Counted from the stretch's first letter, positions 8,261-45,290 are shown. The stretch: 64,000 nucleotides of DNA from a virus (IMGVR_UViG_3300032116_000002); one strand, 5' to 3'. Program-made: numbers and translations. Notes: generated by a model not told the origin, from the sequence alone.

Positions 8261-8590
8261 TTAAGTTACCTGAGTTCCAAATAATGTAAAGCTGACACTA
8301 GCTGAGTTTGCAAATACTGTTACGATATCAGTCGCAGCTAAACTCATACCAAATGATAATGATACTGTATCGTTTGCTGGAATCGTGCTATTGTAAATTA
8401 AATAATGCTCACCAGTTAATGCTGCGCCATTTTTTCTAGCAGCAACACGGTATGAAATTCCACTAGCGTTTTGATTACAGATGACTAATGAACTTACTAT
8501 CGCACTTGTGTTTGCAGGCGTAGTGTATAAATCTGTATTTGTACTCGCTGCTACACTTGATTGCCCTAATATTTGATATGAGAATGCCAT
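8261..8590 (-). CDS. Small adaptor-family protein (109 aa), divergent member
   Basis: VSSLVICNQN...YLIYNSTIPANDT...TDIVTVFANS..VSFTLFG matches the pattern of the five MA(N/A)PN paralogues and occupies the same cassette position. Confidence 0.7.
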   Translation of the reverse strand: MAFSYQILGQSSVAASTNTDLYTTPANTSAIVSSLVICNQNASGISYRVAARKNGAALTGEHYLIYNSTIPANDTVSLSFGMSLAATDIVTVFANSASVSFTLFGTQVT

Positions 8591-8604
8591 TTTTATTCCT
8601 TAAA

Positions 8605-9219
8605 TTATGCCATGAAGAAGAAAGGATGCGGCGTAGAATTATCTGTAATAATTGTAGTCGTTGATGTTGACGCCGGTCCTAATGTTACTACTTCAATAGG
8701 TGATAAGTTTGGTGGTTCAGTAGAAAAAGTTATTATATTGTTTGTTAAACTGTATGTACTTTTAACTTGTGTAATACCGCCCACTGTTACTAATGTATAG
8801 TTTTTATTTGCTGGTGTTGTACTTAATGTGAAATTTACTGTAGTTCCATCACCTGTAAAAGTATCATATACAACTCCAGTGATAACACCAATATTTGTGC
8901 CTGTAGTTGTGCGTACTTCTATAATTGCCCCTGGTATAGGAGTACCAGTAAATGTGATAATATTTGAATTTAAGGTATAGGCAGATTTTTGTTGAATAAC
9001 ACCATCAATATTTACAACAACATAGTCTGAGCTACCTGGTGTTACGCTTAATACGTATGATATTTTAGATCCGTCACCTGCAAATGTATCAGTGATTACG
9101 CTGAACAGTGATCCAGTTACTGGAGTTCTAGTCCAACTATTAGTTGCGCTGGAATAGGTATATGCAATACCGTTTACTACTGCTGATTGTCCATTAGTTG
9201 GTGTTGTTGGGAATGCCAT
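8605..9219 (-). CDS. Short shaft protein (204 aa) with two DTFxGDG modules
   Basis: N-terminal FPTTPTNGQ..YTY..NSW motif, two DTF(A/T)GDG modules, hydrophobic end PHPFFFMA. Confidence 0.75.
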   Translation of the reverse strand: MAFPTTPTNGQSAVVNGIAYTYSSATNSWTRTPVTGSLFSVITDTFAGDGSKISYVLSVTPGSSDYVVVNIDGVIQQKSAYTLNSNIITFTGTPIPGAIIEVRTTTGTNIGVITGVVYDTFTGDGTTVNFTLSTTPANKNYTLVTVGGITQVKSTYSLTNNIITFSTEPPNLSPIEVVTLGPASTSTTTIITDNSTPHPFFFMA

Positions 9220-9237
9220 AATTATAATCTCTGCATA

Positions 9238-9245
9238 TATTTATC
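9238..9245 (-). promoter_or_regulatory. Putative late promoter GATAAATA
   Basis: Overlaps the upstream stop codon; 19 nt upstream of the ATG at 9219. Confidence 0.55.
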
Positions 9246-12200
9246 GTGTTAAGAAAGCTGATCCTGGTGCTGTAAAGGTAGACGTTGAGTATCGTGCTAT
9301 GCCTTTAGTTATTCGTATATCGGTCATATATCCATTAAAATCATTTGTACTAGTTGAAGTTTGGATACCCACACCTAAAGGCAGTGTGCTAGAAAGTGAT
9401 GTACTATCTGTTGCTGTTGCTACTACTGTACCATCAATAAACATTCTATTAGTAGTTCCTGATCTAGTTACTGCTATATGGTACCATTGTCCAGTTGCGA
9501 TTCTAGATGCGTTAGAGTCTTGCAGCAACACGGTTGACGCTCCTACTAGGAATGTCATTGAAGTTCCAGCACTTCTCCAATATAACTGCCAACTATTAGC
9601 ATTACCGCTTGCCCAACGATCTAGTAACAATCTACTACTAGTTAATGCACTAAAATAAACCCATAATTCTATCGTAAAATCACCAGTACCAAAATCAAGA
9701 TTAGGATTAGTTGGCATAGTTAGATAATCATCAGTACCGTCAAAGTACAATGACCCTACATCCCATTTAGCTTGTGCATTGGTTATTATTGCATTGTTCA
9801 CCGTTTCTAAATTATTCTTACCGGTACTATCGTAGATGCCAGCGTTGGTGAAGTTGAGTAGTAATTGTGTATTAGTTATAGCTGTTAATGATGATGCAGG
9901 TGGTGTGAAGGTAGCGGTGTATAGAACCGTTCCTCTTACTAATCTTAAACTAGAAATATAACCGTTAAGTAAATTAGTATTATTATATCCAGCTCCTACT
10001 TTTGGGCCACCTATAACATAGTTATTCGTATCAGTATATGTTGATCCTACTTGCACACCGTTTACAAACATTATTGTACTTGTTCCGCTTCGTGCAACTG
10101 CAATGTGGTACCATTGTCCGACAATTATTGTAGGACCAGTTATTACATTTGTTCCAACAAAATAGGTTAACACTCCGGCGTTTAAATATATCACCGGCGA
10201 TATAGAAGCTGCACTTGTCCTAGAATCATACAATGTTCCTGTAGTTCCTGAAATTAGGTATAGATAACCTTCTAACGTAAAATCTGACGTTCCTATTGTG
10301 AACGCAGCGTTACTAGGTAAATCTAAATAATCCCCTGTCCCATCAAAGTAAGCACTACCACCTACTACAGCAGAGTCATAAGCAGCAGTAGGAGCAAATG
10401 GAGAGAAGGCTTGGACGGATCTAGTTCCTAAGTTTGAACCATTGTCGCCAAACAATATCGTTTTTGTGTTTTGTGTACTGTTATCAACAAACCTATTTGA
10501 TTGTAATGTTAGTAGCTTAACGTCAGATGATGAAACGCTTTGGCTTGTTGTAGTTAATGGGCTTGTAGTTACAGTAAACGCAGATGTATAAACCGCTGAA
10601 CGAGTAAACCTAAAGTTACTAATATACCCGTCTAGTCCTCCGTTATATGAATTAGTAGTACCAATAAATAACTGTTGGTTAGCACTTGCAGAAGGCGTTC
10701 CAGTACCAGAAGTAAGCAATGCTCCATCTTTATATATTGAATAAGTAGATGACGAACGAACAAAAGCAAAATGATACCAAACACCAGTTGTTATACCAGC
10801 ATTTACATTTGTAGCTAAATCTTGGTCGGCAGCATTTCGCCAATAAATATTTGGACTAGCTCCAAAAAGAAATATCCCACCTTGATTGTTCCCTTGCAGT
10901 ATCCAATGAAAATTACTCCCGCCAGGGAGGCTATTAAAATTTACCCAAAATTCAATTGTAAAGTTACCTGCTCCGCTTCCCATATTAAAATCAGCAGAAC
11001 TAGCAACCTGTATGTTTTGATAATTCGTTCTATTAAAATAAGAACTCCACCCCGTCTGACTAAACGGCGTAAATGTTCCCTGCGTAGTATTACCAAATCT
11101 ACTAACAACAAAATTATTTCCAGACCCATCTATGAATCTATTATTGTTTTCTCCTAAACGGTATTGCAATGTTAGTAACGCTGTATTACTAACTACCAAT
11201 AAAGGTGATGCAGATGGAGTAAAGGTTGAAGTATAAAGAGCGGTGCCTTTTACCACCCTAAGATTAGAAATATATCCAGTATGATTCCTAGTACTTACTC
11301 CATCGTTTGCTCTACCTATAGTAAGACTGCCGGCTGGATAATTATATGTGTCGGTGGTGAAGCTGCTTCCAGCCTGCACTCCGTCTACAAACATTCTAGT
11401 AGTAGTGCCGAATCTAGTCACAGCTATGTGTTGCCATCCATTTAATCTTACTACTGAATTACCTGATGTTATTTTATTTACAGCCTCAACATACCAAGCA
11501 TATCCAGTACCGGACGTTAATTCAATAACAGGTTGAACCACAGATAGTCCATTGGTACCGTTACGTTGATCATATAATGTAATATTAGCTGGTATCGCAT
11601 TTAATGCTATATAAACCCAAAATTCTATCGTAAAATCCGTAGTACTCAACGCTAGATTAGCTTGGCTAGTTAATGATAGCCAATCACCGGTTCCATCAAA
11701 ATAAGCACTACCAGTTGTTGTATCTGTTTCTGTAAAGGGACCAAAAGCACTGACTGTGGTATCTCCATTTTTAGTAATGGTAAAATTATTTGTACTATTA
11801 TCAATTAAACGATTGGATTGGCAAGTTAATAAACTTGTGCCTGCTACCGCTGTAAGTGGTGTAGTGCTTGGTGTAAACGCTCCAGTGTATAGTGCTGTGC
11901 CTTTTACCACCCTCAAATTTGAAATATATCCGTTCATTATAAAACCGGAAGCGGCGAATCCATTTAACACTCCAATGTATGGAGTGGTATTTGTAATATC
12001 AGTTGCTTGTGTGCCTGAGGTGGCTAAACTGCCATTGAAAAACAATCTGACAGTTGTACCTGATCTAGTAACAGCAAAATGAGTCCACTGGTTAGTCCCC
12101 GGCGGGCTGGCATATGTTATATCTGTAGACATTCGTACTAAAAAACCAGTAGCAGAGTCTTGGAATATACCTAGCTGCCCGTTAGTACCACCGCCTCCCG

Positions 12201-13092
12201 AATCATAAAGACAGAATCTTGTTACACCAGCATTTAAATAGTACCAGCCTTCTACAGTGAAATCACCAGTTCCAAAACTAAATGCCGAAGATGACGGTAG
12301 TGTCAAATAATCGCCTGTGCCGTCAAACCTATTACTCCATACTGTTTTATACGGACTGAATGCCGTTGGTCGTGTATCACCATTTACAGTAAGTGCAAAT
12401 TTATTTGAACTATTATCATTGATCCATGTGTTAGTGCTATTAGTACCACCCAATAATAACGAAGTGTTTGGGAAATAAGTGTCATTAATAACAACAGTCA
12501 CACTAAATGTTCTTGATGTGTTTTGTAATTCTGCGTCTGTCGCAATAACAGTGAAATTATATGTGGTTGTGGCGCTTCCTGTCCAAGTTCCACTTAATGT
12601 ACCACTACTAGATAATGATAAACCAGGTGGCAGTGAACTTCCTTCAGCTAATGAATAAGTTATATTACTATCGGATGTAGCACTTAATGCCAATAAAACC
12701 GGTACTGTTAAATCTGGTAAATTACTACCTGTGCTCCAAGCAGGAAACACACTATATGTAATACCGTTAATTCTAATAGCCATGCTGCCATCAGGATTTA
12801 TAAGGTATATTACATAAGTACCTGAGCTAGATGCAGGAACTTGTACATTAACTCTTGTACTATTAACAAATGTAACGCTTGTAGAAATCGTACTATCAAT
12901 ATAAACTTGACATCCACTGACAAAGCCAGTTCCATTTACTATAATATACCCGCCTAACGTGCTGACAGCGGTGTCATCTAAGAGTGTACCATAAGTATTA
13001 TCACTTGCAATTTGCACTGAGGTTATGGTAGGCCCAGTTATTGCTGAAATAGTTGCGCTTGTAAAGTCAGTTGATTTTAATCTAGTAATCAT
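9241..13092 (-). CDS. Multi-LamG virion protein (1283 aa): TIG-like, Ig-like, about 5 LamG
   Basis: Same colinear architecture and linkers (GENNNRF, TGKNNLETV) as 4318-8259 and 15284-20044. Confidence 0.85.
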   Translation of the reverse strand: MITRLKSTDFTSATISAITGPTITSVQIASDNTYGTLLDDTAVSTLGGYIIVNGTGFVSGCQVYIDSTISTSVTFVNSTRVNVQVPASSSGTYVIYLINPDGSMAIRINGITYSVFPAWSTGSNLPDLTVPVLLALSATSDSNITYSLAEGSSLPPGLSLSSSGTLSGTWTGSATTTYNFTVIATDAELQNTSRTFSVTVVINDTYFPNTSLLLGGTNSTNTWINDNSSNKFALTVNGDTRPTAFSPYKTVWSNRFDGTGDYLTLPSSSAFSFGTGDFTVEGWYYLNAGVTRFCLYDSGGGGTNGQLGIFQDSATGFLVRMSTDITYASPPGTNQWTHFAVTRSGTTVRLFFNGSLATSGTQATDITNTTPYIGVLNGFAASGFIMNGYISNLRVVKGTALYTGAFTPSTTPLTAVAGTSLLTCQSNRLIDNSTNNFTITKNGDTTVSAFGPFTETDTTTGSAYFDGTGDWLSLTSQANLALSTTDFTIEFWVYIALNAIPANITLYDQRNGTNGLSVVQPVIELTSGTGYAWYVEAVNKITSGNSVVRLNGWQHIAVTRFGTTTRMFVDGVQAGSSFTTDTYNYPAGSLTIGRANDGVSTRNHTGYISNLRVVKGTALYTSTFTPSASPLLVVSNTALLTLQYRLGENNNRFIDGSGNNFVVSRFGNTTQGTFTPFSQTGWSSYFNRTNYQNIQVASSADFNMGSGAGNFTIEFWVNFNSLPGGSNFHWILQGNNQGGIFLFGASPNIYWRNAADQDLATNVNAGITTGVWYHFAFVRSSSTYSIYKDGALLTSGTGTPSASANQQLFIGTTNSYNGGLDGYISNFRFTRSAVYTSAFTVTTSPLTTTSQSVSSSDVKLLTLQSNRFVDNSTQNTKTILFGDNGSNLGTRSVQAFSPFAPTAAYDSAVVGGSAYFDGTGDYLDLPSNAAFTIGTSDFTLEGYLYLISGTTGTLYDSRTSAASISPVIYLNAGVLTYFVGTNVITGPTIIVGQWYHIAVARSGTSTIMFVNGVQVGSTYTDTNNYVIGGPKVGAGYNNTNLLNGYISSLRLVRGTVLYTATFTPPASSLTAITNTQLLLNFTNAGIYDSTGKNNLETVNNAIITNAQAKWDVGSLYFDGTDDYLTMPTNPNLDFGTGDFTIELWVYFSALTSSRLLLDRWASGNANSWQLYWRSAGTSMTFLVGASTVLLQDSNASRIATGQWYHIAVTRSGTTNRMFIDGTVVATATDSTSLSSTLPLGVGIQTSTSTNDFNGYMTDIRITKGIARYSTSTFTAPGSAFLTR

Positions 13093-13439
13093 GCGTATGT
13101 AACCGTTGTTCCTGCTGTAGTTCCGTCACTTGAAACTACAAATAATAATTTTTGTCCTGCTGTACTACTTGGCATTTGTACTCTTAACTCATTCGCACTT
13201 ATAAATGTTATATTTGATGCTAGTGCTGACACTTTAGTATTCGGTGTTCTAATAACCAATTGTGAATTATTTGTAAAAAACGAACCTACAATCTTTATAA
13301 AACCACCACTTGTACTTACAGTGTTACCAATGTTAAAATTATATGTATTATCAGTAACAACAACTCTAGATATCCTAGGTTTAAAAATTCCTGTGAATGT
13401 TGTTGGTACTAGATTATCATATGTTATCTTAGTTGACAT
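13089..13439 (-). CDS. Stand-alone IPT/TIG-like protein (116 aa)
   Basis: Aligns by eye to the first ~115 aa of the downstream LamG protein (DNTY, STxGG(F/Y)I, (I/V)TF(I/V), DG). ATGA overlap with that gene. Confidence 0.7.
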   Translation of the reverse strand: MSTKITYDNLVPTTFTGIFKPRISRVVVTDNTYNFNIGNTVSTSGGFIKIVGSFFTNNSQLVIRTPNTKVSALASNITFISANELRVQMPSSTAGQKLLFVVSSDGTTAGTTVTYA

Positions 13440-13441
13440 TT

Positions 13442-13798
13442 TTAACTCATTAATTCATATGATGCTGAAATGTGTGCAGAATTATTTGCGCTGCAATTAG
13501 CTTGTATTGTATCATCTTCTTCTAGGTAAATAGTTGTATCTTTCGCTAGTACAACTAATGTTGAATTTGCGGGGACATTTATAGTTCCTGCAAGATAATA
13601 AGGTCCGCCTGTGCGATTGACCACTACATTAGCTGAAATTGATGAGCCGCTATAATTACATATTGATATTTCATTAATTTTATAGACGCTGTTGCTTCCT
13701 GATGCGTTTAATACAACATTTCCCGTAATTGTAGACAATGACGCATATGCTGTTCTGCCCGTTATTGCTGTTACTGTTAGTAAATTTGGTGCTGCCAT
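13442..13798 (-). CDS. Small adaptor-family protein (118 aa, MAAPNLL)
   Basis: KINEISICN, VPANSTL, IYLEED, SYELMS motifs shared with its paralogues. Confidence 0.8.
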   Translation of the reverse strand: MAAPNLLTVTAITGRTAYASLSTITGNVVLNASGSNSVYKINEISICNYSGSSISANVVVNRTGGPYYLAGTINVPANSTLVVLAKDTTIYLEEDDTIQANCSANNSAHISASYELMS

Positions 13799-13799: not shown

Positions 13800-15260
13800 T
13801 TATCCCCCGAATACGATTCCCATAATTACTGCTGCTGCTCTAGTAGCAGTAACAGATGTAAAGCTTAAATTACCATTTCCATCTGTTGATATAATTTGTC
13901 CATTAGAACCACCTGTAATTCTAACATTACCAATAGCTCCTAAATTGCTAACACCGTTAGCAACAATATTTCCTGATACTTGTAAATTACCTGTCGTAGT
14001 ATTTGCTGTAACATTTAATGTGTTTATATTTGCTGTGGTAATTACATTAATAGTACCTATCGTTTGTGTAATATCAGTAGCAGGAGGTGGCATCAATTCA
14101 CGAATGAACACCAATGTACCATTAGCAGGTGCACTATCAAACGTTAATGTTGTTCCATTTATTGTATAGTCTGTTGTTGGTAACTGTGCAATACCATTCA
14201 AGTATACTAATACATTATGAATATTAGCACCTTGTGTAACTGTATAAGTTGTACCTGAACCGTTAGCCGTATATGTTCTACTTACATAAGCAGTTGGATC
14301 AGTTGACGCTATTGTTGGGCTTTGTACATCTACCCAATAGTTACCTGTTCCATCACTAATATATTCATACAAAACATCACTTGATGTATTGTACCACATA
14401 TCGCCTCTACTATTACCACTAGCTGGTGGTGTAGTTGCTGCTGTGTATGTGCCACCGCCTCCTCCGCCACCTCCTATAACAGTATCCCAAATTAAATTAC
14501 CTGTTCCATCAGTTTTTAAGTACTGATCTGCACTACCACCTGTAATTCTAACATTGCCAACGTTGCCTAAATTTGATATTCCACCTACTGATAAATTACC
14601 TGTAACGTTTGCATAACCAGATATATTTGCGCCTGTGCCTGTAACCGTAACTATATTTGCATTTCCTGCTACACTTATCGTTGCATTTGCATTGGCAGCT
14701 ACAACAATATTACTATTACCATTTACCAAAGACACTGCTGTTACAGCAGATATACCTGTTAATTGACTACCATTACCTACAAAGAAGTTTGCGACTACTG
14801 CATTTCCTAAATTAGCATTACCTGCTGCTAAATTTCCAATGTAATTAGGTAAATAATTTGCGACCCAATCGTTTGCTGTATTACTAAACGCATTAGTGCT
14901 AAGCTTGTTTGCTAAACTGTTTGTTACTGAAGTTGAAAAACTTGCATCATTACCTAATGCATTACTTAACTCACCTAATGTGTCAAGAACCGCAGGAGCT
15001 GAATTTACTAAATTAGCTACCGCATTACTCACCTCTGTAGTTGTCGCAAAATTACTGACATCAGGCAATGATGTCCAACTAAGATTTCCTGCTCCGTCAG
15101 TTTTTAATACATAATTAGCTGTGCCACCGGATATTTTTATATTTGCTACGTTACCTAAATTAGCAACATTAGCGATTAAATTACCCGTTACGGTTACATT
15201 AGCAAATGTAAATGTTGCATTTGAATTTACACCTAATGGTTGAATCTTTGTAACTGGCAT
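13800..15260 (-). CDS. Shaft/fibre protein (486 aa)
   Basis: GG..(Y/Q)..(K/S)TDG.GNL.(W/F) modules, APAVLDTLGELSNALGND tail-fibre motif, GDMWY module, hydrophobic end VIMGIVFGG. Confidence 0.8.
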   Translation of the reverse strand: MPVTKIQPLGVNSNATFTFANVTVTGNLIANVANLGNVANIKISGGTANYVLKTDGAGNLSWTSLPDVSNFATTTEVSNAVANLVNSAPAVLDTLGELSNALGNDASFSTSVTNSLANKLSTNAFSNTANDWVANYLPNYIGNLAAGNANLGNAVVANFFVGNGSQLTGISAVTAVSLVNGNSNIVVAANANATISVAGNANIVTVTGTGANISGYANVTGNLSVGGISNLGNVGNVRITGGSADQYLKTDGTGNLIWDTVIGGGGGGGGTYTAATTPPASGNSRGDMWYNTSSDVLYEYISDGTGNYWVDVQSPTIASTDPTAYVSRTYTANGSGTTYTVTQGANIHNVLVYLNGIAQLPTTDYTINGTTLTFDSAPANGTLVFIRELMPPPATDITQTIGTINVITTANINTLNVTANTTTGNLQVSGNIVANGVSNLGAIGNVRITGGSNGQIISTDGNGNLSFTSVTATRAAAVIMGIVFGG

Positions 15261-15277: not shown

Positions 15278-15285
15278 TATTTATT
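15278..15285 (-). promoter_or_regulatory. Putative late promoter AATAAATA
   Basis: Overlaps the upstream stop codon; 18 nt upstream of the ATG at 15260, with a GAGG RBS in between. Confidence 0.45.
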
Positions 15286-20056: not shown

Positions 20057-21274
20057 TTAAAATGTTATTGATCCGTTACCGGTAAATTGGTATATTTTAT
20101 AGCCGCTAGCAGTTGTAACTGTTGGGCTACCTGTAGTAGATGACGGATCATCAAAGCTTGATAGATATCTAAGTATAACAATACCCGAACCACCCGAACC
20201 ACCCGAAGCATAACTTCCTGCTCCATTTTGTGCGCCACCGCCACCTCCACTACCGGTGTTTGTTGTTCCGTTACCACCTGTTTGTATTGGGAAACCTGAA
20301 CCAAAACCACCGCCACCTGAGCCACCGTCTGAAGTTGCCATAGAACCATCAGTATTGGTTCCTCCGCCACCTCCACCAGCTCTTGTAACTGCCGTACCTG
20401 TTATTGAAGAAGTAGCTCCGGCGCCACCTGCTCCTCCTCGGGCTCTATTGCTACCAGTACCAGCTGAGCCTGCAGCACCTGCGCCACCACCTCCACCTCC
20501 GACAAATCCATTAAATGCTCCGCCGTTATTTCCCTCACCAGCTGTACCTGTACCTGAAGCAACGGTTCCACCGCCACCTCCCCCTCCACCTGAACCACCA
20601 CTACCTGTAGTAGCTAAAGCACTTCCTCCTCTGCCCCCGCCTGTCGATGTGATAAACAAATTGATTGGACCAAAGCTACTGTCACTTCCGTTAGAGACAC
20701 TTGGACCTCCACCTGCGCCACCGCCGCCCACACTCACGCTGTAATTAACCCCTGATGTGACAGAATAACCAGAGGCTGTTCTATAGCCGCCAGCTCCTCC
20801 GCCACCTCCACCACCACCTAAGCTGGCACCACCTCCGCCACCGCCCGCAATTATTAGATACTCAAGTGATGTAGGTGGATTACCCGGTGTTACAGATAAG
20901 CTAGAAGATGAGTCTGCTGACGCTCCTCTTGCATTAACTGATTTGACAGTAAAAGAATAGCTTGTTCCATTTGTTAATCCTGTTACGGTAATAGGACTAC
21001 TAGCGCCAGTAGCAGTAATATTACCCGGCATTGCAGTTACTATATATGAAGTAATAGCAGTTCCACCATTTGAAGCAGGGGGAGTAAATGTAATTGTGGC
21101 TTGCATGTTGCCTCTTGTTGCACTTACATTAGTTGGAGGTCCAGGCAAACCTGACCAAGTACCACTAGCAGTATATTGAATAGCTTCACTAGCAGAAAAC
21201 ATTCCGCTAGCACTACTATTAGTAACAGTAGGTCGTGTTGCAGAAATTATTCCACCAGTATATCTTTTTGGCAT
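20057..21274 (-). CDS. FN3 plus glycine-rich domain protein (405 aa)
   Basis: PGPPTNVSAT...FTPPASNGGTAITSY...GLTNGTSYSFTVKSVN is a fibronectin type III signature, followed by the Gly-rich domain. TAATG overlap with the adaptor gene. Confidence 0.8.
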   Translation of the reverse strand: MPKRYTGGIISATRPTVTNSSASGMFSASEAIQYTASGTWSGLPGPPTNVSATRGNMQATITFTPPASNGGTAITSYIVTAMPGNITATGASSPITVTGLTNGTSYSFTVKSVNARGASADSSSSLSVTPGNPPTSLEYLIIAGGGGGGASLGGGGGGGGAGGYRTASGYSVTSGVNYSVSVGGGGAGGGPSVSNGSDSSFGPINLFITSTGGGRGGSALATTGSGGSGGGGGGGGTVASGTGTAGEGNNGGAFNGFVGGGGGGAGAAGSAGTGSNRARGGAGGAGATSSITGTAVTRAGGGGGGTNTDGSMATSDGGSGGGGFGSGFPIQTGGNGTTNTGSGGGGGAQNGAGSYASGGSGGSGIVILRYLSSFDDPSSTTGSPTVTTASGYKIYQFTGNGSITF

Positions 21275-37857: not shown

Positions 37858-38217
37858 TTATCCTATCTCCTCCCAACTACAAACTGCCTGTAATCTACTA
37901 TTAGCGTTAGATGTCAATCTTAAACTATCTCCCTCTAATAAGTATAAACTTAACGATTTGTCTATTGGAGTAAATGCTGTATTAATACCTATTATAACTT
38001 CGTTACTTAATTTTGTTGCAGAATTAGCTCTATATAAATCTACTGTTATAGTCGCACTATTAGTTGAATCAATATTTGCGATTACTAACATATTAACTCT
38101 ATATACTTTGCCACTAGCAGTACTGTTTGTTACTACGGCAGTTGCGCTTGTAGTAACATTTTGAACTGCGGAATTGCCATACATTGATGACATACTTACT
38201 ATGTTTGGATTTGCCAT
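37858..38217 (-). CDS. Small adaptor-family protein (119 aa, MANPNIV)
   Basis: RVNMLVIAN, LYLLEGD, SWEEIG motifs. Confidence 0.8.
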   Translation of the reverse strand: MANPNIVSMSSMYGNSAVQNVTTSATAVVTNSTASGKVYRVNMLVIANIDSTNSATITVDLYRANSATKLSNEVIIGINTAFTPIDKSLSLYLLEGDSLRLTSNANSRLQAVCSWEEIG

Positions 38218-38226: not shown

Positions 38227-41200
38227 TTAAAATCCTAATAAAAAACTCATTGCTCTTAGTCTTCCTGCACTTGCTAATTCAGTAGATGTATTGATGGTCG
38301 TTACTTCTAGTAATGAATTATTAGCAGGTGGACTATCAAATACTAAATTAGCCCCACTTAATGTATAAGAGCTGCGTAGCATTGTTGCTCCGTTGTAATT
38401 AACGGTTATTTGTTTCTCATCACTTGGTGTAACACTTAGAGTAAATGTAGTTTGAACCCCATTTCCTGTAAATGAGTCCTGTGTTATATCTAAAGATGCA
38501 ACTGGATTAGCCCAAACTAAATTTCCAGAGCCGTCTGTTTGTAAAAACTGGCTTGAACTTCCCCCAGTAATATGCAAATTACTAACGCTGCCTAAACTAA
38601 CATTAGCACCAGTGAAACTTACGTTACCACTAACATTTAAACTTGTTAATGTACCAACGCTAGTAATATTAGGTTGTGCATTATTAGTAACCGTATTAGC
38701 CGTCCCTGATGAACTCGCATTAGCTATACCAGTTAATAAACTACCATCACCAACAAAGAAATTAGCTGCGACAGCGTTTCCTAAATTAGCATTTCCTGAT
38801 GTTATATTACCTGTAACATTTAGACTTGTCAACGTACCAACACTGGTTATATTTGGCTGCGCATTTGTATAAACAGTGCTTGCTACAGCAGCATTACCTA
38901 CTTGCCCACTAACATTATATCCTTGAATATTTGATAGTAAATTACCGCTTCCGCTAAAGAAATTAGCTGTAACTAAATTACCTAAATTAGCGTTGCCGGC
39001 AGATAAATTTCCTGTATAATTAGGTAAATAATTAGCTACGTCTGTATTAGTGTACCCAGCAGGTAATCCAGTTAACTGGCTACCGTTTCCTAAGAAGAAG
39101 CCAGCACGTAAATTACCTAATGTATTAAAGGTTACAACTTCATTACTAACACTTACATTACTACCAAAAGCAAATTCTGCATTTGAGTTGTCCCAACCAA
39201 TAAAAGCATCTGTTGCTGTTGATCCTGTATAATAGTGTAATAGCGTACCTCTATCTTTTCCATCATTACTTGTTAGTACTGCACCGTTGGCTCCGCTACC
39301 TAACTCAAACAATGGATCAACAATTTGCGTAGTAGTTGAATTAACAGTTGTAGTTGTACCTGATACAGTTAAGTTACCTGATATAACCGCATCTACTGCT
39401 GTCAACGTTGCATTGCTTTGTATATTACCTGCAACTAAATTTCCTGTAACGCTTAAACTTGTTAATGTGCCAACGCTAGTAATATTAGGTTGTGCATTTG
39501 TGTATACGGTACCAGCTACTAATGCATTACCTACTTGTCCTGAAACATTAGCACCGGCTACACTATTTGATGTCGCTGCAAATGCAACTTCACCTGATAC
39601 ATTAGAACCTGATACGAAATATGCAGTTCCAGCAAAAACTGAATAATTTGCGTTTGCAACTGTACCAGTTACGTTAGCACCTGTAATGCTTGTTAATAAA
39701 CTACCATTACCTGTAAAGAAATTAGCAGTAACTAAATTACCTAAATTAGCATTACCTGCTGACACATTACCTGTAATATCTAAACTTGTTAGCGTACCAA
39801 CACTAGTAATATTGGGCTGTGCATTTGTGTATACTGTGCCTGCTACTAAACTGTTGCCTACTTGCCCACTGACATTAGCGCCAGCAACACTGTTTGCAGT
39901 AGTCGCATAAGCTACAGCACCAGAAACATTGCTTCCACTTACACTGTATGATGTACCTGATGTTACTGCATAAGTTGCGTTTGCAACTGTACCTGTTACG
40001 TTTGCACCAGCAACAGTGTTTGCTACATCTGCGACGTTTGCATGATTTGCACCTGCAACATCACCTGAAACATTTGCACCACTTACGCTGTATGCAGTGT
40101 TCGCAACGTTAGCATTAGGTACAAATCCATTAACATTTGCACCAGTGATAAAAGTTAGTCCTACACCATTTGCAACTAGATTATCAACGGTTAATGTTTT
40201 AGTTGTTACATCAAATGTTAAATTAGCACTTGCACCTAAATTTGTACCATCATTATATTGAATTTGTGTGTTACTACCGGAAACATTGGCATTACCAGTA
40301 CCACTAGTAATTGATGTCCAACTTAAATTGCCTGCGCCATCTGTTTTTAACACATAATTTGCAGTACCGCCGGCAATTTTTAAATTACTTACATTACCTA
40401 AGCTTACATTTGCACCGGTAAAACTAACGTTACCACTTACATCTAAACTAGTTAATGTACCTATGCTGGTAATATTTGGTTGAGAGTTAGTGTATACTGT
40501 ACCTGCCACAAGTGCGTTACCTACTTGACCAGTTACATTACTACCACTTACACTGTTTGCTACATCTGCAACATTAGCATGGTTAGCACCTGCAACATCA
40601 CCTGATACATTAGCGCCACTTACGCTATAAGCTGTATTCGCAACATTTGCATTTGCTACAAAACCAGTAACGTTTGCGCCGGCTACACTGTTTGCTGAGT
40701 CAGCTACGTTTGCATGATTAGCGCCACTTACATCACCTGATACATTAGCACCACTGACACTATAAGCTGTATTTGCTACATTAGCGTTTGGAACAAATCC
40801 AGTTACGTTTGCTCCTGCTATGCTTGTTAATCCACTACCATTACCAAAGTAAACACCTGCTCTTAAATTACCTAATGTGTTGAAAGTTACAACTTCTGAA
40901 CTTACACTGACATTACTGCCAAATGCAAATTCAGCATTGGAGTTGTCCCAACCCATAAATGCATCAATAACACCGCCTGAATAATAATGTAGTAATTGAC
41001 CTCTATCTTTGCCGTCATTTGTTGTTAGTGCGCCTGATACTTCTCCGCCCTGTTCTATTATAGGATCTTTAACAATAATAGAGGATACATTTGCTGTAAT
41101 AGTAGTTCCACTTACAGTTAAATTACCTGTGACAGTAGCATCACCTGATGCTAATGCACCAGTCACTGTTAAACTTGTAAGAGTTCCTACACTAGTAATA

Positions 41201-41610
41201 TTAGGTTGTGCATTTGTATAAACAGTACCAGCGACTAATGCATTTGCTACCTGTCCACTTACATTACCACCACTTACACTAAATGCAGTATTTGCTACAT
41301 TAGCATTTGGAACAAATCCTGTGACATTAGCACCTGCTATGTTTGTTAGTCCTGCACCATTAGCTATGATGTTAGTGACACTCAGTGAGTTGGTAGATTT
41401 GTCAAATGTAAAATTTGCGCTACTTCCAAAAGCATTTGCGTCATTAAATTGTACTTGTGTATTACTACCGGCTACTGAACCACCCAACACATAGGGCGTG
41501 CCATTAGCATACATCAAATTATCAGTTTTTACATTGGCGGTAACATTACCAAAAGTATAATCTTTAGTAGCGTCTAGGTTAAAGGGTTGTAATAATGTAA
41601 TTGCGGGCAT
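38227..41610 (-). CDS. Long shaft/fibre protein (1127 aa)
   Basis: Six QPNITS repeats, many GANV(T/S)G repeats, two DGKDRG..HYY..WDNSN modules, hydrophobic end LRAMSFLLGF. Confidence 0.8.
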   Translation of the reverse strand: MPAITLLQPFNLDATKDYTFGNVTANVKTDNLMYANGTPYVLGGSVAGSNTQVQFNDANAFGSSANFTFDKSTNSLSVTNIIANGAGLTNIAGANVTGFVPNANVANTAFSVSGGNVSGQVANALVAGTVYTNAQPNITSVGTLTSLTVTGALASGDATVTGNLTVSGTTITANVSSIIVKDPIIEQGGEVSGALTTNDGKDRGQLLHYYSGGVIDAFMGWDNSNAEFAFGSNVSVSSEVVTFNTLGNLRAGVYFGNGSGLTSIAGANVTGFVPNANVANTAYSVSGANVSGDVSGANHANVADSANSVAGANVTGFVANANVANTAYSVSGANVSGDVAGANHANVADVANSVSGSNVTGQVGNALVAGTVYTNSQPNITSIGTLTSLDVSGNVSFTGANVSLGNVSNLKIAGGTANYVLKTDGAGNLSWTSITSGTGNANVSGSNTQIQYNDGTNLGASANLTFDVTTKTLTVDNLVANGVGLTFITGANVNGFVPNANVANTAYSVSGANVSGDVAGANHANVADVANTVAGANVTGTVANATYAVTSGTSYSVSGSNVSGAVAYATTANSVAGANVSGQVGNSLVAGTVYTNAQPNITSVGTLTSLDITGNVSAGNANLGNLVTANFFTGNGSLLTSITGANVTGTVANANYSVFAGTAYFVSGSNVSGEVAFAATSNSVAGANVSGQVGNALVAGTVYTNAQPNITSVGTLTSLSVTGNLVAGNIQSNATLTAVDAVISGNLTVSGTTTTVNSTTTQIVDPLFELGSGANGAVLTSNDGKDRGTLLHYYTGSTATDAFIGWDNSNAEFAFGSNVSVSNEVVTFNTLGNLRAGFFLGNGSQLTGLPAGYTNTDVANYLPNYTGNLSAGNANLGNLVTANFFSGSGNLLSNIQGYNVSGQVGNAAVASTVYTNAQPNITSVGTLTSLNVTGNITSGNANLGNAVAANFFVGDGSLLTGIANASSSGTANTVTNNAQPNITSVGTLTSLNVSGNVSFTGANVSLGSVSNLHITGGSSSQFLQTDGSGNLVWANPVASLDITQDSFTGNGVQTTFTLSVTPSDEKQITVNYNGATMLRSSYTLSGANLVFDSPPANNSLLEVTTINTSTELASAGRLRAMSFLLGF

Positions 41611-42252: not shown

Positions 42253-42257
42253 AATTT

Positions 42258-43220
42258 TTAAAATATAATTGATCCGCTACCTGTGAAGGTGTAAATTCTA
42301 TAACCAGCCGAAGTTGTAATGGTTGGGCTACCTGTAGTTGATGCTGCAACCGGTAATGATAATGGATATCTAATTATAACAATACCAGAGCCTCCTGCAC
42401 CTCCGGTAGTAGCTGAAGACGCTGCATGGCCGCCGCCGCCTCCGCCTGTATTAGGTGTACCTGATACACCAAATGTCATTGAACCCGTTGATCCGGAACC
42501 TCCGGCGCCGCCACCGCCAAGACCACCACTTCCTGGGGTCTCCGGCGTTAAATTTGCACCTGTCTCACCACCGCCACCGCCACCTGCATAATATATCCCT
42601 GAACCTATGGGCCATTCAGACCCTGAACCGCCATTACCAGCAACTGTTTGTGATACAGCATTTTGACCAACACTACCAGCACCGCCGCCTCCAGCTCCAC
42701 CTGGAGTAGAGCCGGAAGGTAATGCTATTCCGCCATTATTTCCTTGTCCAAATCTTCCGGAGCCACCTATATTGGCTTTATTACCTGCTCCTCCGCCACC
42801 TGATCCGCCACCAGTAGCTTGCACCCCGTCAACCTGACCGCCGCCACCGCCACCGCCTATAGCAGTTACATTAATGTGAGAACTTGTAATAGAAGAATTT
42901 TGACCGGTTCCCCCAACTGGTGTAACTGATGACGCGCCTGTACCACCTCCACCTACAGTTATTGTGTATGTAATGCCAAATATCATATCAGCGGAACTTG
43001 CGACTAACCCTCCGGCGCCACCACCTCCACCGCGATTATATCCTCCACCTCCACCGCCTGCAACAATTAAATAATCCGCAGGAACTGCTGAACCCGGCCA
43101 TTTTCTCTCACCTACGGCTTGTGTGACTTCAGTTCCAGTAAACATCCCTGCACCTGACGAACTGCTAGTAATTGTTGGTCTAGTGGCAGATAATAGTCGT
43201 CCTGGATATCTTGTTGGCAT
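42258..43220 (-). CDS. Glycine-rich domain protein (320 aa)
   Basis: MPTRYPG N-terminus, YLIVAGGGGG...GGSGIVIIRY...GYRIYTFTGSGSIIF. Confidence 0.8.
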   Translation of the reverse strand: MPTRYPGRLLSATRPTITSSSSGAGMFTGTEVTQAVGERKWPGSAVPADYLIVAGGGGGGYNRGGGGGAGGLVASSADMIFGITYTITVGGGGTGASSVTPVGGTGQNSSITSSHINVTAIGGGGGGGQVDGVQATGGGSGGGGAGNKANIGGSGRFGQGNNGGIALPSGSTPGGAGGGGAGSVGQNAVSQTVAGNGGSGSEWPIGSGIYYAGGGGGGETGANLTPETPGSGGLGGGGAGGSGSTGSMTFGVSGTPNTGGGGGGHAASSATTGGAGGSGIVIIRYPLSLPVAASTTGSPTITTSAGYRIYTFTGSGSIIF

Positions 43221-43222
43221 GA

Positions 43223-43594
43223 TTAACTTAATACCTGTATACTCGCCACCAATTCAATAGCATTATTAGTTCCGGATGTGGCTACGACTGACTGACCCTC
43301 ACCAATATATAATGGATTACCCTTGTCAACTAGCATCAACGAGGTATTCCCTGGGATAGGTAATTGAAAGGCTATTCTATATGCAGTACCACCGCCACCT
43401 GTTGCACTATTAATTGAAACGGTTATTGTTGCCGCTGTGTTTGTTACGTTTGTTGCTGTCAAGCTATCCATTTTTGTGACTGAGTTGGCACTAGGTGTGA
43501 GACCTGTCCAAGTAGTAGCGGTTGTTCCAGTAGGAATCAGGTAAGTTGTACTTACATAAATTGATGTTGCATTTACAATATTTGGATTTGCCAT
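43223..43594 (-). CDS. Small adaptor-family protein (123 aa, MANPNIV)
   Basis: KMDSLTATN, IPGNTSL, LYIGEGQ, SIQVLS motifs. Confidence 0.8.
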   Translation of the reverse strand: MANPNIVNATSIYVSTTYLIPTGTTATTWTGLTPSANSVTKMDSLTATNVTNTAATITVSINSATGGGGTAYRIAFQLPIPGNTSLMLVDKGNPLYIGEGQSVVATSGTNNAIELVASIQVLS

Positions 43595-43595
43595 T

Positions 43596-45290
43596 TTAAT
43601 ACCCTAAAAACATATTTATCGCAGCAGACTTAGCAGTTGTGGAACCTGACGATACATTAGAAAAGCTTATATTACCGTTTCCATCAGTTTGTAGGTATTG
43701 TCCAAAAGTTCCTCCTAATATTTTAACATTACTTACATTTCCTAAATTTATAGTTGAACCAGTCAGTGTTAAATTTGCGGCTGTGTTAATATTAGCTACA
43801 TTACTTATCCATGCGTTTGCAGTATTACTAAACGTGTTAGTAAGCAGATAACTGCTTAAATTAGGACCTGCTATTGTTGTTGGCAGTTCACGTATTTGAA
43901 TAGAAACATTGCTATTTACGGGACTAGTAAATGTGAGCGTATTACCTGATATTGTATAATCAGTTATTGGTGTTTGAAGTATACCATTAAGTGTGACAAG
44001 AACTGTATTTGCATTTGCACCAGAAGTTACAGTATAAGTATTTCCTGTTCCATTGCCTGTTGCTGTTCGTGTAACATAGTCAACTGTACCAGTAGCGTAC
44101 ATTTGTGTTATGGTAACTTCTAGTTGAGCACCATTAGCAGGAGCACTACCAAAAACAATGTTTGCTCCATTTAATGAATAAGAATTTCTTAATAGTGTAG
44201 CACCGTTGTAATTAACTGTTGTATCGTTTATATTATTAGGGGTTACACTTAACGTAAAAGTTGTTTGTACTCCATTGCCTGTAAATGTGTCAACAAAAAT
44301 CGCATTTGTGAAATTTCCTGCTGCTGATGAATTAGCCCAAATAAGATTGCCTGTTCCGTCAGTCTGTAGGAATTGATTACTAGAACCACCTAATATTTTT
44401 AAGTTAGATATATTACCTAAACTTACATTTGCACCTGTAAAACTTGTGTTACCAGTTACGTTCAACCCAGTTAAATTACCAACACTAGTAATATTAGGTT
44501 GTGCCGCGTTTGATACAGTACTTGCTATAACACCTAAATTATCTACAAAGGTTTTTGTTACGCGGTTATCGATAGCAGTGTTTGCTCTGTCAACCGTATA
44601 GTATAGATTTGTGCCTTCTGATAAATTGCTTGTTGATTGTGTGCTTAACCATGTGTTAGCTGTATTACTAAACGCATTAGTGTTTAATTTATTAGCTAAT
44701 GTATTAGTGATTGTAGTAGAGAAACTAGCATCATTACCTAATGCGTTGCTTATTTCTCCTAATGTATCTAACAATGCTGGTGCAGAGTTAATTAAGTTTG
44801 CAATTGAGTTACTAACATAAGTTTCTGTAGCATAGCCTGTTAAGTTAGCAGTTTGTTGTGCTACCCATGTTAAATTACCATTACCGTCAGTGCTTAAAAT
44901 GTAAGCGTTAGAACCACCTGATATTTTTACATTAGAAATATTACCTAAGTTAACTGTTCCTGATACAGTTAAACTTGTTAGTGTGCCTACACTAGTAATA
45001 TTTGGTTGAGAACTGCTATAAACGGTGCTTGAAGTTAGTGAGTTACTTACCTGTCCTGTAACATTTGCACCGGATATAGTTGTTAAATTAGAACCATCGC
45101 CAGTAAAGTAATTTGCTACGGCTATATTACCTAAATTAGAGCTACCTGTAACAGAAAGATTAGCGACTGTGATATTTCCAGTAGGATTAGAAACAGCGTT
45201 ATCTACATAAGCTTTTGTAGCTGCATCTTGTGCAGCAGTTGGATCTTTTAAATTTTTAATCTGGGCCGGTGCTGGAAATGTTAATGCCAT
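43596..45290 (-). CDS. Shaft/fibre protein (564 aa)
   Basis: DAATKAYVD, APALLDTLGE, SEGTNLYYT and two T(F/A)TGNG modules; hydrophobic end AAINMFLGY. Confidence 0.8.
   Translation of the reverse strand: MALTFPAPAQIKNLKDPTAAQDAATKAYVDNAVSNPTGNITVANLSVTGSSNLGNIAVANYFTGDGSNLTTISGANVTGQVSNSLTSSTVYSSSQPNITSVGTLTSLTVSGTVNLGNISNVKISGGSNAYILSTDGNGNLTWVAQQTANLTGYATETYVSNSIANLINSAPALLDTLGEISNALGNDASFSTTITNTLANKLNTNAFSNTANTWLSTQSTSNLSEGTNLYYTVDRANTAIDNRVTKTFVDNLGVIASTVSNAAQPNITSVGNLTGLNVTGNTSFTGANVSLGNISNLKILGGSSNQFLQTDGTGNLIWANSSAAGNFTNAIFVDTFTGNGVQTTFTLSVTPNNINDTTVNYNGATLLRNSYSLNGANIVFGSAPANGAQLEVTITQMYATGTVDYVTRTATGNGTGNTYTVTSGANANTVLVTLNGILQTPITDYTISGNTLTFTSPVNSNVSIQIRELPTTIAGPNLSSYLLTNTFSNTANAWISNVANINTAANLTLTGSTINLGNVSNVKILGGTFGQYLQTDGNGNISFSNVSSGSTTAKSAAINMFLGY
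43613..43620 (-). promoter_or_regulatory. Putative late promoter GATAAATA embedded in coding sequence
   Basis: Within codons A-I-N-M of the 564 aa gene, 19 nt upstream of the adaptor ATG at 43594, the same spacing as three other copies. Confidence 0.4.

What the first reader, a model, noticed from the sequence alone, without database searches (positions are those of the whole stretch)
8261..45290. Six-fold repeated shaft / small adaptor / tip cassette: a candidate plug-and-socket fibre assembly system
Seen: in transcription order the same triplet recurs six times: 564+123+320 aa; 1127+119+1849; 70+118+1305; 981+123+405; 486+118+116(+1283); 204+109+1313. Gene 1 is always a fibre-module protein with a hydrophobic end, gene 2 is always an adaptor paralogue, and gene 3 or 4 is a LamG or Gly-rich protein. 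The five promoter-initiated units each hold four genes. Known: T-even long fibres join a shaft (gp37) to a separately encoded Gly-rich adhesin (gp38), but only once per genome. Inference: the adaptor is a standard coupling that links any shaft to any adhesin, so the phage displays a panel of receptor-binding appendages. I do not recall a described system with this repeated three-part grammar.
Basis: partly seen in the sequence, partly recalled or inferred. Interest (0 to 1): 0.88.

Follow-up and report, generated by a model that had tools for sequence, protein, structure and literature searches.

The report
Plug-and-socket joint for phage fibres
A huge phage carries six copies of a three-gene set in which a small jelly-roll protein most likely joins a fibre shaft to exchangeable binding heads, and the same undescribed joint turns up in thousands of mostly aquatic phages.

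Summary
On the minus strand, six small proteins of 109-123 aa each sit between a fibre-repeat protein and a LamG or glycine-rich protein. Five are clear paralogues. The sixth belongs to a second class of the same superfamily (profile-profile probability 98.4%).

The grammar is not peculiar to this phage. In 80 viral contigs, 29 MAG or prophage loci and several cultured phages, three features recur:
- The gene upstream ends in a conserved roughly 12-residue plug, consensus TGKAIAMAIVFGG.
- The small protein, a 9-strand jelly roll with no Pfam family and no solved relative, follows within a few bases.
- One to three downstream genes start with a conserved roughly 40-residue leader (NGGIIG...SGIW.L.E...WP).

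Natural fusions join the small domain either to glycine-rich or LamG heads or to fibre ends. A distant member in cyanophage S-SCSM1 lies between two tail-fibre genes and is named a virion protein. A co-fold of adaptor and shaft end gave only weak support.

The small protein is therefore most likely a structural fibre joint. Within this phage the six plugs and adaptors have diverged together, which argues for cognate pairs rather than any-to-any coupling.

The parts
43596..45290 (-). Unit 1 shaft, 564 aa fibre-repeat protein; plug = last 14 codons (43599-43640), ending AKSAAINMFLGY
   Evidence: ORF; fibre repeats shared with other shafts; C-terminus
43223..43594 (-). Adaptor 1, 123 aa, class I
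   Evidence: Profile E 2e-35; orthologues at 60-94% identity in metagenomes
42258..43220 (-). Tip 1, 320 aa: N-terminal leader (43086-43220) plus Gly_rich_2 domain
   Evidence: Pfam E 3e-23; leader HMM E 1e-7; fold pLDDT 86, with Bxb1 tail-tip chain Q, Pam3 fibre and ALK glycine-rich domain as best matches
38227..41610 (-). Unit 2 shaft, 1127 aa; plug ends GRLRAMSFLLGF; ATAAATA at 41635-41641 upstream
37858..38217 (-). Adaptor 2, 119 aa, class I
   Evidence: Profile E 5e-48
32307..37856 (-). Tip 2, 1849 aa, with He_PIG Ig domains and six Laminin_G_3 domains
   Evidence: Pfam E 5e-89; its N-terminus aligns with the leader in the alignment, but the leader HMM does not detect it
29438..32284 (-). 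Fourth gene of unit 2, 948 aa fibre-repeat protein without a plug
   Evidence: 78% identical over 540 aa to the unit 4 shaft; C-terminus lacks the motif
29183..29395 (-). Unit 3 minimal shaft, 70 aa; plug ends STIISSIIDI; ATAAATA at 29414-29420
   Evidence: N-terminus hits phrog_6002 virion structural protein; upstream proteins of 66-72 aa recur in other loci
28815..29171 (-). Adaptor 3, 118 aa, class I
   Evidence: Profile E 7e-42
24896..28813 (-). Tip 3, 1305 aa LamG array with a weak leader
   Evidence: Pfam Laminin_G_3 E 9e-47; leader HMM E 0.0011
21647..24592 (-). Unit 4 shaft, 981 aa; plug (21650-21691) ends ARVVGYNLVFGG
   Evidence: PHROG tail-fibre hits; the plug type is kept with the type-4 adaptor in L089
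21274..21645 (-). Adaptor 4, 123 aa, class I; this is the copy that was modelled
   Evidence: AlphaFold2 pLDDT 91.7, nine strands; jelly-roll matches at Z about 9
20057..21274 (-). Tip 4, 405 aa: leader, fn3 and Gly_rich_2; its start shares one base with the adaptor's stop codon
   Evidence: Pfam; leader HMM E 3e-7; junction sequence
15284..20044 (-). Fourth gene of unit 4, 1586 aa LamG array
   Evidence: Pfam Laminin_G_3 E 5e-113
13800..15260 (-). Unit 5 shaft, 486 aa; plug ends RAAAVIMGIVFGG; ATAAATA at 15278-15284
13442..13798 (-). Adaptor 5, 118 aa, class I
   Evidence: Profile E 1e-40
13089..13439 (-). 116 aa TIG-like protein, a stand-alone copy of the N-terminal domain of the LamG tips
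   Evidence: Pfam TIG; BLASTP to residues 1-109 of three LamG proteins; weak leader, E 0.0011
9241..13092 (-). Unit 5 LamG tip, 1283 aa
   Evidence: Pfam
8605..9219 (-). Unit 6 shaft, 204 aa; class II type plug ends TPHPFFFMA; ATAAATA at 9238-9244
   Evidence: Pfam DUF4183 and Phage_T7_tail; the plug resembles other class II plugs
8261..8590 (-). Adaptor 6, 109 aa, class II
   Evidence: 2187 relatives; hhalign to class I at probability 98.4%; matches the N-terminal part of phrog_1276 and phrog_693
4318..8259 (-). Unit 6 LamG tip, 1313 aa
   Evidence: Pfam
3389..4306 (-). Fourth gene of unit 6, 305 aa: leader plus Gly_rich_2, with no adaptor directly before it
   Evidence: Pfam E 4e-20; leader HMM E 4e-6

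Best explanation
Each cassette most likely encodes one composite virion fibre built around a conserved three-part joint.

1. The upstream shaft is a fibre-repeat protein of any length from 66 to over 1800 aa. It ends in a plug of about 12 residues in which small and large hydrophobic residues alternate, as in a beta strand, followed by Gly-Gly.
2. The 109-123 aa protein is a single jelly-roll domain that captures this plug. By analogy with other small jelly rolls it probably acts as an oligomer. It stays in the virion as the joint.
3. One to three downstream proteins carry a conserved N-terminal leader of about 40 residues. They dock on the adaptor and expose glycine-rich (polyglycine-type), LamG, Ig or FN3 bodies that bind the host surface.

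The three genes are translationally coupled. This jumbo phage has expanded the module to six cassettes. Their plugs and adaptors have diverged together, so it probably builds six separate fibre kinds without cross-assembly.

What is shown: the synteny, the plug and leader motifs, the fold, the fusions, and the name 'virion protein' given to a distant member in its GenBank record, a label that appears to mark MS-detected proteins.

What is inferred: physical binding, oligomeric state, stoichiometry, receptor binding, and whether these are tail fibres or other virion fibres.
For: Synteny and plug. Of 73 ORFs directly upstream of class I adaptors in viral contigs, 57 end in the strict plug pattern, against 21 of 3478 other ORFs (Fisher p 7e-92). 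At least 10 of those 21 are real upstream ORFs that my ORF caller mis-assigned. The upstream bodies are unrelated to one another (68 distinct N-termini) while the plug is nearly invariant. The same holds in MAG and prophage loci, including a Hyphomicrobium chromosome, and in HTVC033P, Bellamy, S-SKS1 and DSL-LC04.

Leader. A leader HMM trained on half of the loci finds 18 of 29 held-out downstream proteins. Of 84 leader-bearing ORFs in all loci, 82 lie within 7 kb downstream of an adaptor. Of 49 loci, 41 have at least one and 15 have two or three in tandem.

Fusions. The class II domain is fused N-terminally to Gly_rich_2, LamG or He_PIG proteins (P0149, P0157, P0187, P0220, P0235, P0228). It is fused C-terminally to fibre-like proteins (P0204, P0269, and a 1395 aa fibre in L093 that is followed by four proteins with leader-like N-termini seen by eye; the leader HMM found none).

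Fold. pLDDT is 91.7 with nine strands. The jelly roll resembles trimeric cement, turret and spore-appendage subunits.

Virion presence. In S-SCSM1, ORF27 lies between the long tail fibre gene (ending TPFILALGGN) and a tail fibre gene. It matches the profiles at E 9e-6 and 5e-4, and BFVD fold TM is 0.79/0.87. The record names it 'virion protein', and the phage's virion was analysed by mass spectrometry (PMC9602691).

Co-fold. Three adaptor 4 chains plus three copies of the last 60 aa of shaft 4 scored ipSAE 0.47, best control 0.00. The mark was reached by 58 of 80 solved complexes and 2 of 110 mismatched pairs, but at 0.60 or under by only 7 of those 80 and by both passing mismatches. The runs agree in at least 94% of contacts and the partner's pLDDT is at least 69. 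My own alignments and six chains were used, so the calibration holds only roughly. The tool's verdict is 'weak support'.

Co-divergence.
Against: - No experiment shows binding, and the co-fold pass is weak, with no interface returned.
- The oligomeric state of the adaptor was not tested.
- Three of the window's tips (1849, 1283 and 1313 aa) are not detected by the leader HMM.
- Pontimonas phage phiPsal1 has a plug-bearing 86 aa protein and a class II adaptor but no tip gene after it. S-CBWM1 has an orphan copy outside any fibre context.
- Without the window's own copies, the correlation between plug and adaptor divergence is not significant (r 0.21; 148 of 2000 permutations reach it).
- The virion evidence concerns a distant member and rests on a GenBank label. 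I did not find the mass-spectrometry table itself.
Confidence: 0.55

Rival explanations
1. The small protein is itself the distal knob of the shaft: a separately encoded lectin-like receptor-binding cap held by the plug. The downstream LamG or glycine-rich proteins attach elsewhere, or are separate appendages that merely travel in the same cassette.
For: - Jelly-roll knobs end many fibres. Foldseek lists the Sf6 and HS1 needle knobs, the 7-7-1 fibre C-terminal domain and the TNF-like lectin BC2L-C among its weaker matches.
- Two records annotate homologues as 'putative lectin'.
- phiPsal1 has a plug and an adaptor but no tip gene.
Against: - Downstream genes carry a conserved leader that is found almost only after adaptors (82 of 84).
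- Their start codon usually shares one base with the adaptor's stop codon.
- The adaptor domain is naturally fused to the N-terminus of the same glycine-rich and LamG head types.
- In S-SKS1 and S-SCSM1 the protein lies between two fibre segments, not at an end.
Confidence: 0.2
2. The small protein is a fibre assembly chaperone, in the manner of tail fibre assembly proteins. It recognises the C-terminal plug to trimerise the upstream fibre and is absent from the virion, or only loosely retained.
For: - A small gene placed directly downstream of a fibre gene is the classic chaperone position (established for T4 gp38/gp57A, lambda Tfa and Mu/P2 assembly proteins; my own knowledge).
- A conserved C-terminal tag on very different fibres would suit one common chaperone.
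Against: - The adaptors have no Pfam hit at all, so none to a chaperone family.
- The fold is an all-beta jelly roll.
- The domain is permanently fused to structural heads and to fibre ends in many natural proteins.
- The S-SCSM1 member is labelled a virion protein.
- A chaperone model does not explain the leader on the downstream genes.
Confidence: 0.13
3. The gene order reflects only a mobile or co-regulated cassette. The three products do not touch, and the shared terminal motifs serve another purpose, for example ribosome-binding sequences or secretion and processing signals.
For: The terminal Gly-Gly-stop codons of several plugs (GGAGGATAA) double as the Shine-Dalgarno sequence of the adaptor gene. 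Part of the conservation could therefore act at the nucleotide level.
Against: - The conserved plug spans about 12 residues, far more than a ribosome-binding site.
- It is conserved at the protein level across very different codon contexts.
- Fusions in both directions and the weak co-fold pass against zero-scoring controls argue for contact.
Confidence: 0.05

Closest known systems
T-even long tail fibre joints: gp34-gp35-gp36-gp37, and the gp38 adhesin of T2/S16-type phages
   Same: - Fibres are built from separately encoded segments joined by small connector proteins.
- A separately encoded, glycine-rich, monomeric adhesin is attached by its N-terminal part to the end of a trimeric shaft (PMC12032242 describes gp38 as modular, monomeric and at the distal tip).
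- S-SKS1 and S-SCSM1 place the adaptor between two fibre segments, as with gp35/gp36.
   Different: - No sequence relation: Pfam gives Gly_rich_2, not a gp38 family.
- The connector here is one roughly 120 aa jelly roll.
- Both partners carry short conserved peptides, the plug and the leader.
- The module is repeated up to six times in one genome and often has two or three heads per adaptor.
- gp38 was not among the 50 best fold matches of tip 1.
Chain-like ('bead on rope') fibres of phages GP4, VP1, A1002 and A-1(L)
   Same: Small beta-rich subunits dock on an extended peptide of another protein by beta-sheet augmentation. [quoted passage not shown] This is the mechanism I infer for plug and socket.
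   Different: - Those fibres string many dimers on a long repetitive rope. Here there is a single C-terminal plug, no repeat rope, and one adaptor gene per junction.
- The adaptors have no Pfam hit to any family, bead families included.
Tail fibre assembly proteins (lambda Tfa, Mu/P2 type)
   Same: A small protein encoded directly after the fibre gene acts on the fibre's C-terminal end. Some stay on the tip (my own knowledge).
   Different: - Different fold class and no sequence match.
- The adaptor is followed by leader-bearing head genes and occurs fused to them.
Glycine-rich distal domains of the mycobacteriophage Bxb1 tail tip (9d93 chain Q), the cyanophage Pam3 fibre (7ypx) and the ALK/LTK glycine-rich domain
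   Same: These are the best fold matches of tip 1 (Foldseek E 1.5e-4 for Bxb1, 0.07 for Pam3). They are glycine-rich domains at phage tail or fibre ends.
   Different: - TM scores are low (0.29-0.36 by query).
- Those proteins are not known to be attached through a separate jelly-roll adaptor.

Membership tests
Adaptor superfamily defined here (class I of about 118-124 aa; class II of about 106-112 aa) | Significant profile match over the whole domain | tested here: met
   Five copies score E 2e-35 to 5e-48 against the class I profile (that profile includes the window's copies, but independent BLASTP and metagenomic orthologues agree). The sixth copy has 2187 relatives of its own, and the class II profile matches class I at probability 98.4%.
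Adaptor superfamily defined here | Upstream gene ends in a hydrophobic plug; downstream gene starts within a few bases | tested here: met
   Six of six in the window; 57 of 73 elsewhere.
Single jelly-roll fold | Eight- or nine-strand beta sandwich with matches to known jelly rolls | tested here: met
   pLDDT 91.7 with nine strands. VIA-align Z 9.3 to 4ind, 9.2 to 7dou, 9.1 to 7a02, at rmsd 2.9-3.3 over 99-112 residues. Z of this size is only a little above the tool's usual background.
Tail fibre assembly chaperones (Pfam Caudo_TAP and relatives) | Sequence match to the family | tested here: not met
   No Pfam family at E up to 0.01 for any of the six; no PHROG assembly family.
Fibre dimers of chain-like fibres (GP4 gp80 type) | Sequence match to the bead family, and a repeat 'rope' partner | tested here: not met
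   No Pfam hit. The shafts carry a single terminal plug and no 20-22 residue rope repeats next to the adaptor.
TNF-like trimeric lectins (BC2L-C N-terminal domain) | Fold match and sugar-binding trimer | tested here: inconclusive
   Foldseek rank 12, TM 0.39, rmsd 7.1. The oligomeric state was not testable here.
Pfam Gly_rich_2 (PF21722) | Score above the gathering threshold | tested here: met
   83.3, 60.5 and 73.2 bits against a cut-off of 24.3 for the 320, 405 and 305 aa proteins.
Pfam Laminin_G_3 (PF13385) | Score above the gathering threshold | tested here: met
   159-374 bits with 4-6 stretches each in the five large tips.
T4-type gp38 adhesin | Sequence or fold match to gp38 | tested here: inconclusive
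   No Pfam gp38 hit. gp38 is not among the 50 best Foldseek matches of tip 1. Glycine-rich folds align poorly, so absence is weak evidence.

The most novel reading that the evidence does not exclude
The plug, jelly-roll adaptor and leader form a general, programmable coupling standard of aquatic phages. An oligomeric adaptor offers several sockets, so one shaft can carry two or three different heads at once; tandem arrays of two or three leader-bearing tip genes per adaptor fit this. Diverged plug-adaptor pairs are orthogonal, which would let one virion assemble six distinct multi-headed fibres without cross-wiring. The same joint also chains fibre segments in series, as the S-SKS1 gene order suggests.
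Probability: 0.3. Interest if true: 0.85.

Novelty: new variant of a known kind. Interest (0 to 1): 0.72.

Why it matters
Receptor-binding appendages decide which hosts a phage can infect, yet most fibre genes of marine and freshwater phages have no assigned function.

- A short, recognisable grammar (plug, adaptor, leader) would allow shafts and heads to be annotated in thousands of uncultured cyanophage, pelagiphage and jumbo-phage genomes.
- It would explain how unrelated heads are swapped onto unrelated shafts by recombination.
- It would give a compact handle for attaching chosen binding domains to fibres in laboratory phages.
- The six diverged cassettes in one genome offer a natural test set for how specificity of such joints is encoded.

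Tried and rejected
- Megablast of 8 kb of the window against cultured phages found nothing. The phage could be placed only through its capsid protein, which is 66-70% identical to those of PA5oct, Vibrio 2.275.O and Phosso.
- No whole genome is held for the window.
- The six-copy alignment was too divergent to seed a locus search. A consensus-like alignment worked.
- Profile searches of both classes against all PDB sequences found no relative (best E 0.067 and none). The protein atlas gave only unnamed viral clusters.
- Literature searches found no description of this joint. The Sullivan 2010 cyanophage proteome text did not name the P-SSM2 homologue.
- A single-sequence hhalign of copy 6 against a class I alignment was weak (probability 12%). 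Only the profile-profile comparison settled it.
- Hydropathy of the last eight residues does not by itself separate shafts from other window proteins.
- The plug-adaptor divergence correlation is not significant without the window's own copies.
- I could not find the S-SCSM1 mass-spectrometry table to confirm ORF27 directly.
- The S-TIM5 homologue is 'hypothetical' in the GenBank version held. Only the plug-bearing 96 aa neighbour is labelled as virion structural.

Full report
**What is in the window.** All long ORFs lie on the minus strand. The window starts, in transcription order, with a T4-type major capsid gene (62883-63995). Its product is 66-70% identical to the capsid proteins of the jumbo phages PA5oct, Vibrio 2.275.O and Sinorhizobium Phosso. 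The window's adaptor 1 sits on a contig of 369,578 bases, so this is a huge phage. Its host is unknown and no whole genome is held.

From the 1127 aa gene onward the genes fall into five four-gene units. Four of these are preceded by ATAAATA 18-25 nt before the start codon. The motif is depleted in the window (18 found, 34.6 expected), and six of its eight minus-strand copies sit just upstream of a gene start. The unit headed by the 981 aa gene has only a variant.

**The small proteins.**
- Five are mutual BLASTP hits (26-37% identity, E down to 8e-22). They share an invariant N-terminus, MA.PN.
- None has a Pfam family. PHROG hits are absent or of unknown function.
- The class I profile finds 3543 metagenomic proteins, nearly all 117-126 aa and unannotated.
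- The sixth copy (109 aa) has no BLASTP link to the others. It has 2187 relatives among 50%-identity representatives. A profile of these matches the class I profile at probability 98.4%, E 6e-15 over 99 columns. All six therefore belong to one superfamily with two classes.
- AlphaFold2 on a 50-sequence alignment gives a confident nine-strand beta sandwich (pLDDT 91.7).
- The best solved matches are small jelly rolls that build oligomers: the STIV turret, the trimeric cement protein of phage KHP40, Bacillus Ena appendage subunits, the HFTV1 turret and nucleoplasmin. They score Z 8-9.3 at rmsd 2.5-3.3, only a little above the tool's background.
- No solved structure is related by sequence.

**The grammar is conserved far beyond this phage.** I fetched 80 viral contigs that encode class I relatives and examined the neighbours of every adaptor gene.

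*Upstream: the plug.*
- The ORF directly upstream ends in a near-invariant peptide, consensus (S/T)TGKAIAMAIVFG(G), in 57 of 73 cases by a strict pattern. Only 21 of 3478 other ORFs match (Fisher p 7e-92). At least ten of those 21 are true upstream ORFs that were mis-assigned because the adaptor's start had been called too early.
- The bodies of these upstream proteins are unrelated to each other. They include collagen-like runs, fibre repeats and minimal 66-72 aa proteins, with lengths from 66 to 1863 aa.
- In the plug, small and large hydrophobic residues alternate (A-I-A-M-A-I-V-F). This is the pattern of a beta strand buried on both faces; that reading is my inference from the sequence.

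*Downstream: the leader.*
- The next gene usually starts on the last base of the adaptor's stop codon.
- It begins with a conserved leader of about 40 residues: NGG(I/L)IG, then about ten residues, then SG(I/V)W.L.E, then G.WP.
- A leader HMM trained on half of the loci finds 18 of 29 held-out cases. Almost all of its 37 'control' hits are second or third genes behind the same adaptor.
- In all, 82 of 84 leader-bearing ORFs lie within 7 kb downstream of an adaptor. Of 49 loci with enough sequence, 41 have at least one and 15 have two or three in tandem.
- Behind the leader the bodies vary: 29 of 80 are Gly_rich_2-like, 13 are LamG, and the rest are of other kinds.

*Other collections.* The same arrangement holds in MAG and prophage loci, including a Hyphomicrobium chromosome. 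It also holds in cultured phages: Pelagibacter phage HTVC033P gp66-65-64, Synechococcus phage Bellamy gp39-40-41 (plus two class II-like cassettes), S-SKS1, DSL-LC04 and P-SSM2.

**How the window fits.**
- The six shafts end in AKSAAINMFLGY, GRLRAMSFLLGF, STIISSIIDI, ARVVGYNLVFGG, RAAAVIMGIVFGG and TPHPFFFMA.
- Tips 1 and 4, and the 305 aa glycine-rich protein at the end of unit 6, carry clear leaders (E 1e-7 to 4e-6). Tip 3 and the 116 aa TIG protein carry weak ones (E 0.0011). The LamG tips of units 2, 5 and 6 are not detected.
- Fibre-like window proteins not followed by an adaptor lack the plug motif. Hydropathy alone does not separate them.

**Evidence that the parts touch.**
1. *Rosetta-stone fusions.* The class II domain is fused directly to the N-terminus of Gly_rich_2, LamG and He_PIG proteins, the same head types as in the window (P0149, P0157, P0187, P0220, P0235, P0228). 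It is also fused to the C-terminus of fibre-like proteins (P0204, P0269). In a 260 kb viral contig, a 1395 aa fibre ends in the adaptor domain and is followed by four proteins whose N-termini resemble the leader by eye, although the leader HMM found none in that locus.
2. *Co-fold.* Three adaptor 4 chains with three copies of the last 60 residues of shaft 4 scored ipSAE 0.47, best control 0.00.
   - The mark was reached by 58 of 80 solved complexes and 2 of 110 mismatches.
   - At 0.60 or under it was reached by only 7 of those 80, and by both mismatches that passed.
   - The runs agree in at least 94% of contacts and the partner's pLDDT is at least 69.
   - My own alignments and a six-chain job differ from the calibration.
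   - The verdict is 'weak support', and no interface was returned.
3. *Virion presence.* BFVD fold matches include small proteins named virion proteins in cyanophages.
   - In S-SCSM1, ORF27 (112 aa) matches the profiles at E 9e-6 (class I) and 5e-4 (class II).
   - It lies between the long tail fibre gene, which ends TPFILALGGN, a class II type plug, and a tail fibre gene.
- The record calls it 'virion protein'.
   - The paper reports 45 proteins found by mass spectrometry in CsCl-purified virions, 13 of them of unknown function (PMC9602691).
   - I could not find the table itself.

**Universal or cognate?**
- Across single-cassette phages the plug is almost invariant while the adaptors differ by up to half of their residues. 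This fits a shared standard that lets shafts and heads be exchanged between phages.
- Within this phage the six plugs are 0-36% identical and the adaptors 16-39%.
- A type-4 adaptor orthologue (76% identical) in a T4-like contig keeps a type-4 plug, VGYSLIFGG.
- Class II adaptors go with a different plug, [NH]PF[FL][FL], seen in the window, L089, L055, L028 and S-SCSM1.
- By contrast, a type-1 orthologue (65% identical) pairs with the consensus plug. Without the window's copies the plug-adaptor correlation is not significant.
- I therefore read the six cassettes as probable cognate pairs, but this is inference.

**What the heads are.** Tip 1 folds with pLDDT 86. Its leader has low confidence, and the body is a glycine-rich domain with little regular secondary structure. 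Its best solved matches are a glycine-rich chain of the mycobacteriophage Bxb1 tail tip, the cyanophage Pam3 fibre and the ALK/LTK glycine-rich domain. These are distal, binding-type domains. The LamG arrays with Ig-like domains look like beads-on-a-string adhesins.

**Variants that limit the model.**
- phiPsal1 has a plug-bearing protein and an adaptor but no tip gene.
- S-CBWM1 has an orphan copy among non-structural genes.
- In S-SKS1 the order is 928 aa fibre (plug), 114 aa class II-like adaptor, 1727 aa fibre (plug), 120 aa class I adaptor, then two leader-bearing tips. The joint can therefore chain fibre segments as well as attach heads.
- Five other large viral contigs hold only one or two copies. 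Six in 37 kb is thus an unusual expansion.

**Comparison with known systems.**
- The closest in function are the T-even fibre joints and the gp38 adhesin, which is monomeric, modular and at the distal tip (PMC12032242).
- The closest in mechanism are the chain-like fibres of GP4, VP1 and A1002. There, small subunits dock on a peptide of another protein by beta-sheet augmentation (PMC13730344). I came to these papers through earlier notes of this scan.
- Membership in those families, or in tail fibre assembly chaperones, is not met by sequence.
- I found no paper that describes this adaptor family or its plug and leader.

**Verdict.** The 'any-to-any' claim is not supported within this phage. 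The system is a new variant of a known kind, the multi-protein phage fibre. It rests on an uncharacterised, very abundant protein superfamily.

Noticed in passing
window 41672-42046 (-): A 124 aa protein starting MAHFAKLD (phrog_7759, unknown function) sits between units 1 and 2. Homologues with the same start lie next to leader-bearing tip genes in HTVC033P (gp63), DSL-LC04 and L089. It may be a second accessory of these cassettes.
   Followed up: partly
window 21647-21660, 13800-13812 and other shaft-adaptor junctions: The last codons of several plugs (Gly-Gly-stop, GGAGGATAA or GGGGGATAA) form the Shine-Dalgarno sequence of the adaptor gene 1 nt downstream. The protein motif and the translational coupling signal therefore overlap.
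   Followed up: no
window 3344-3350, 9238-9244, 15278-15284, 29414-29420, 41635-41641, 62784-62790 (-): ATAAATA lies 18-34 nt upstream of gene starts and is depleted elsewhere (18 found, 34.6 expected). It is a likely late-promoter core of this phage.
   Followed up: partly
window 2897-3325 (-) and 76-2892 (-): A 142 aa protein ends in a plug-like YPFSATTIALGD and is followed 4 nt later by a 938 aa protein with no adaptor between them. This may be a seventh junction of another kind.
   Followed up: no
window 42070-42252 (-): A 60 aa ORF is 59% identical to an internal repeat of the unit 1 shaft (residues 276-312). It looks like a fibre-repeat remnant.
   Followed up: no
window 47558-47791 (-) and 51788-52687 (-): A 77 aa and a 299 aa (LamG-like) protein share an N-terminal ARL.K.GTL motif, and both end in FDEVT.I(S/T). 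This may be another pair of docking peptides.
   Followed up: no
L083 (HTVC033P), L002 (DSL-LC04), L084 (Bellamy): 2OG-Fe(II) oxygenase genes lie a few genes downstream of the adaptor cassettes in three unrelated phages.
   Followed up: no
L069, L073, L075, L106, L122: A minority of class I adaptors follow proteins that end in ...EWWG(N/D/Q) instead of the hydrophobic plug. This may be a third plug type.
   Followed up: no
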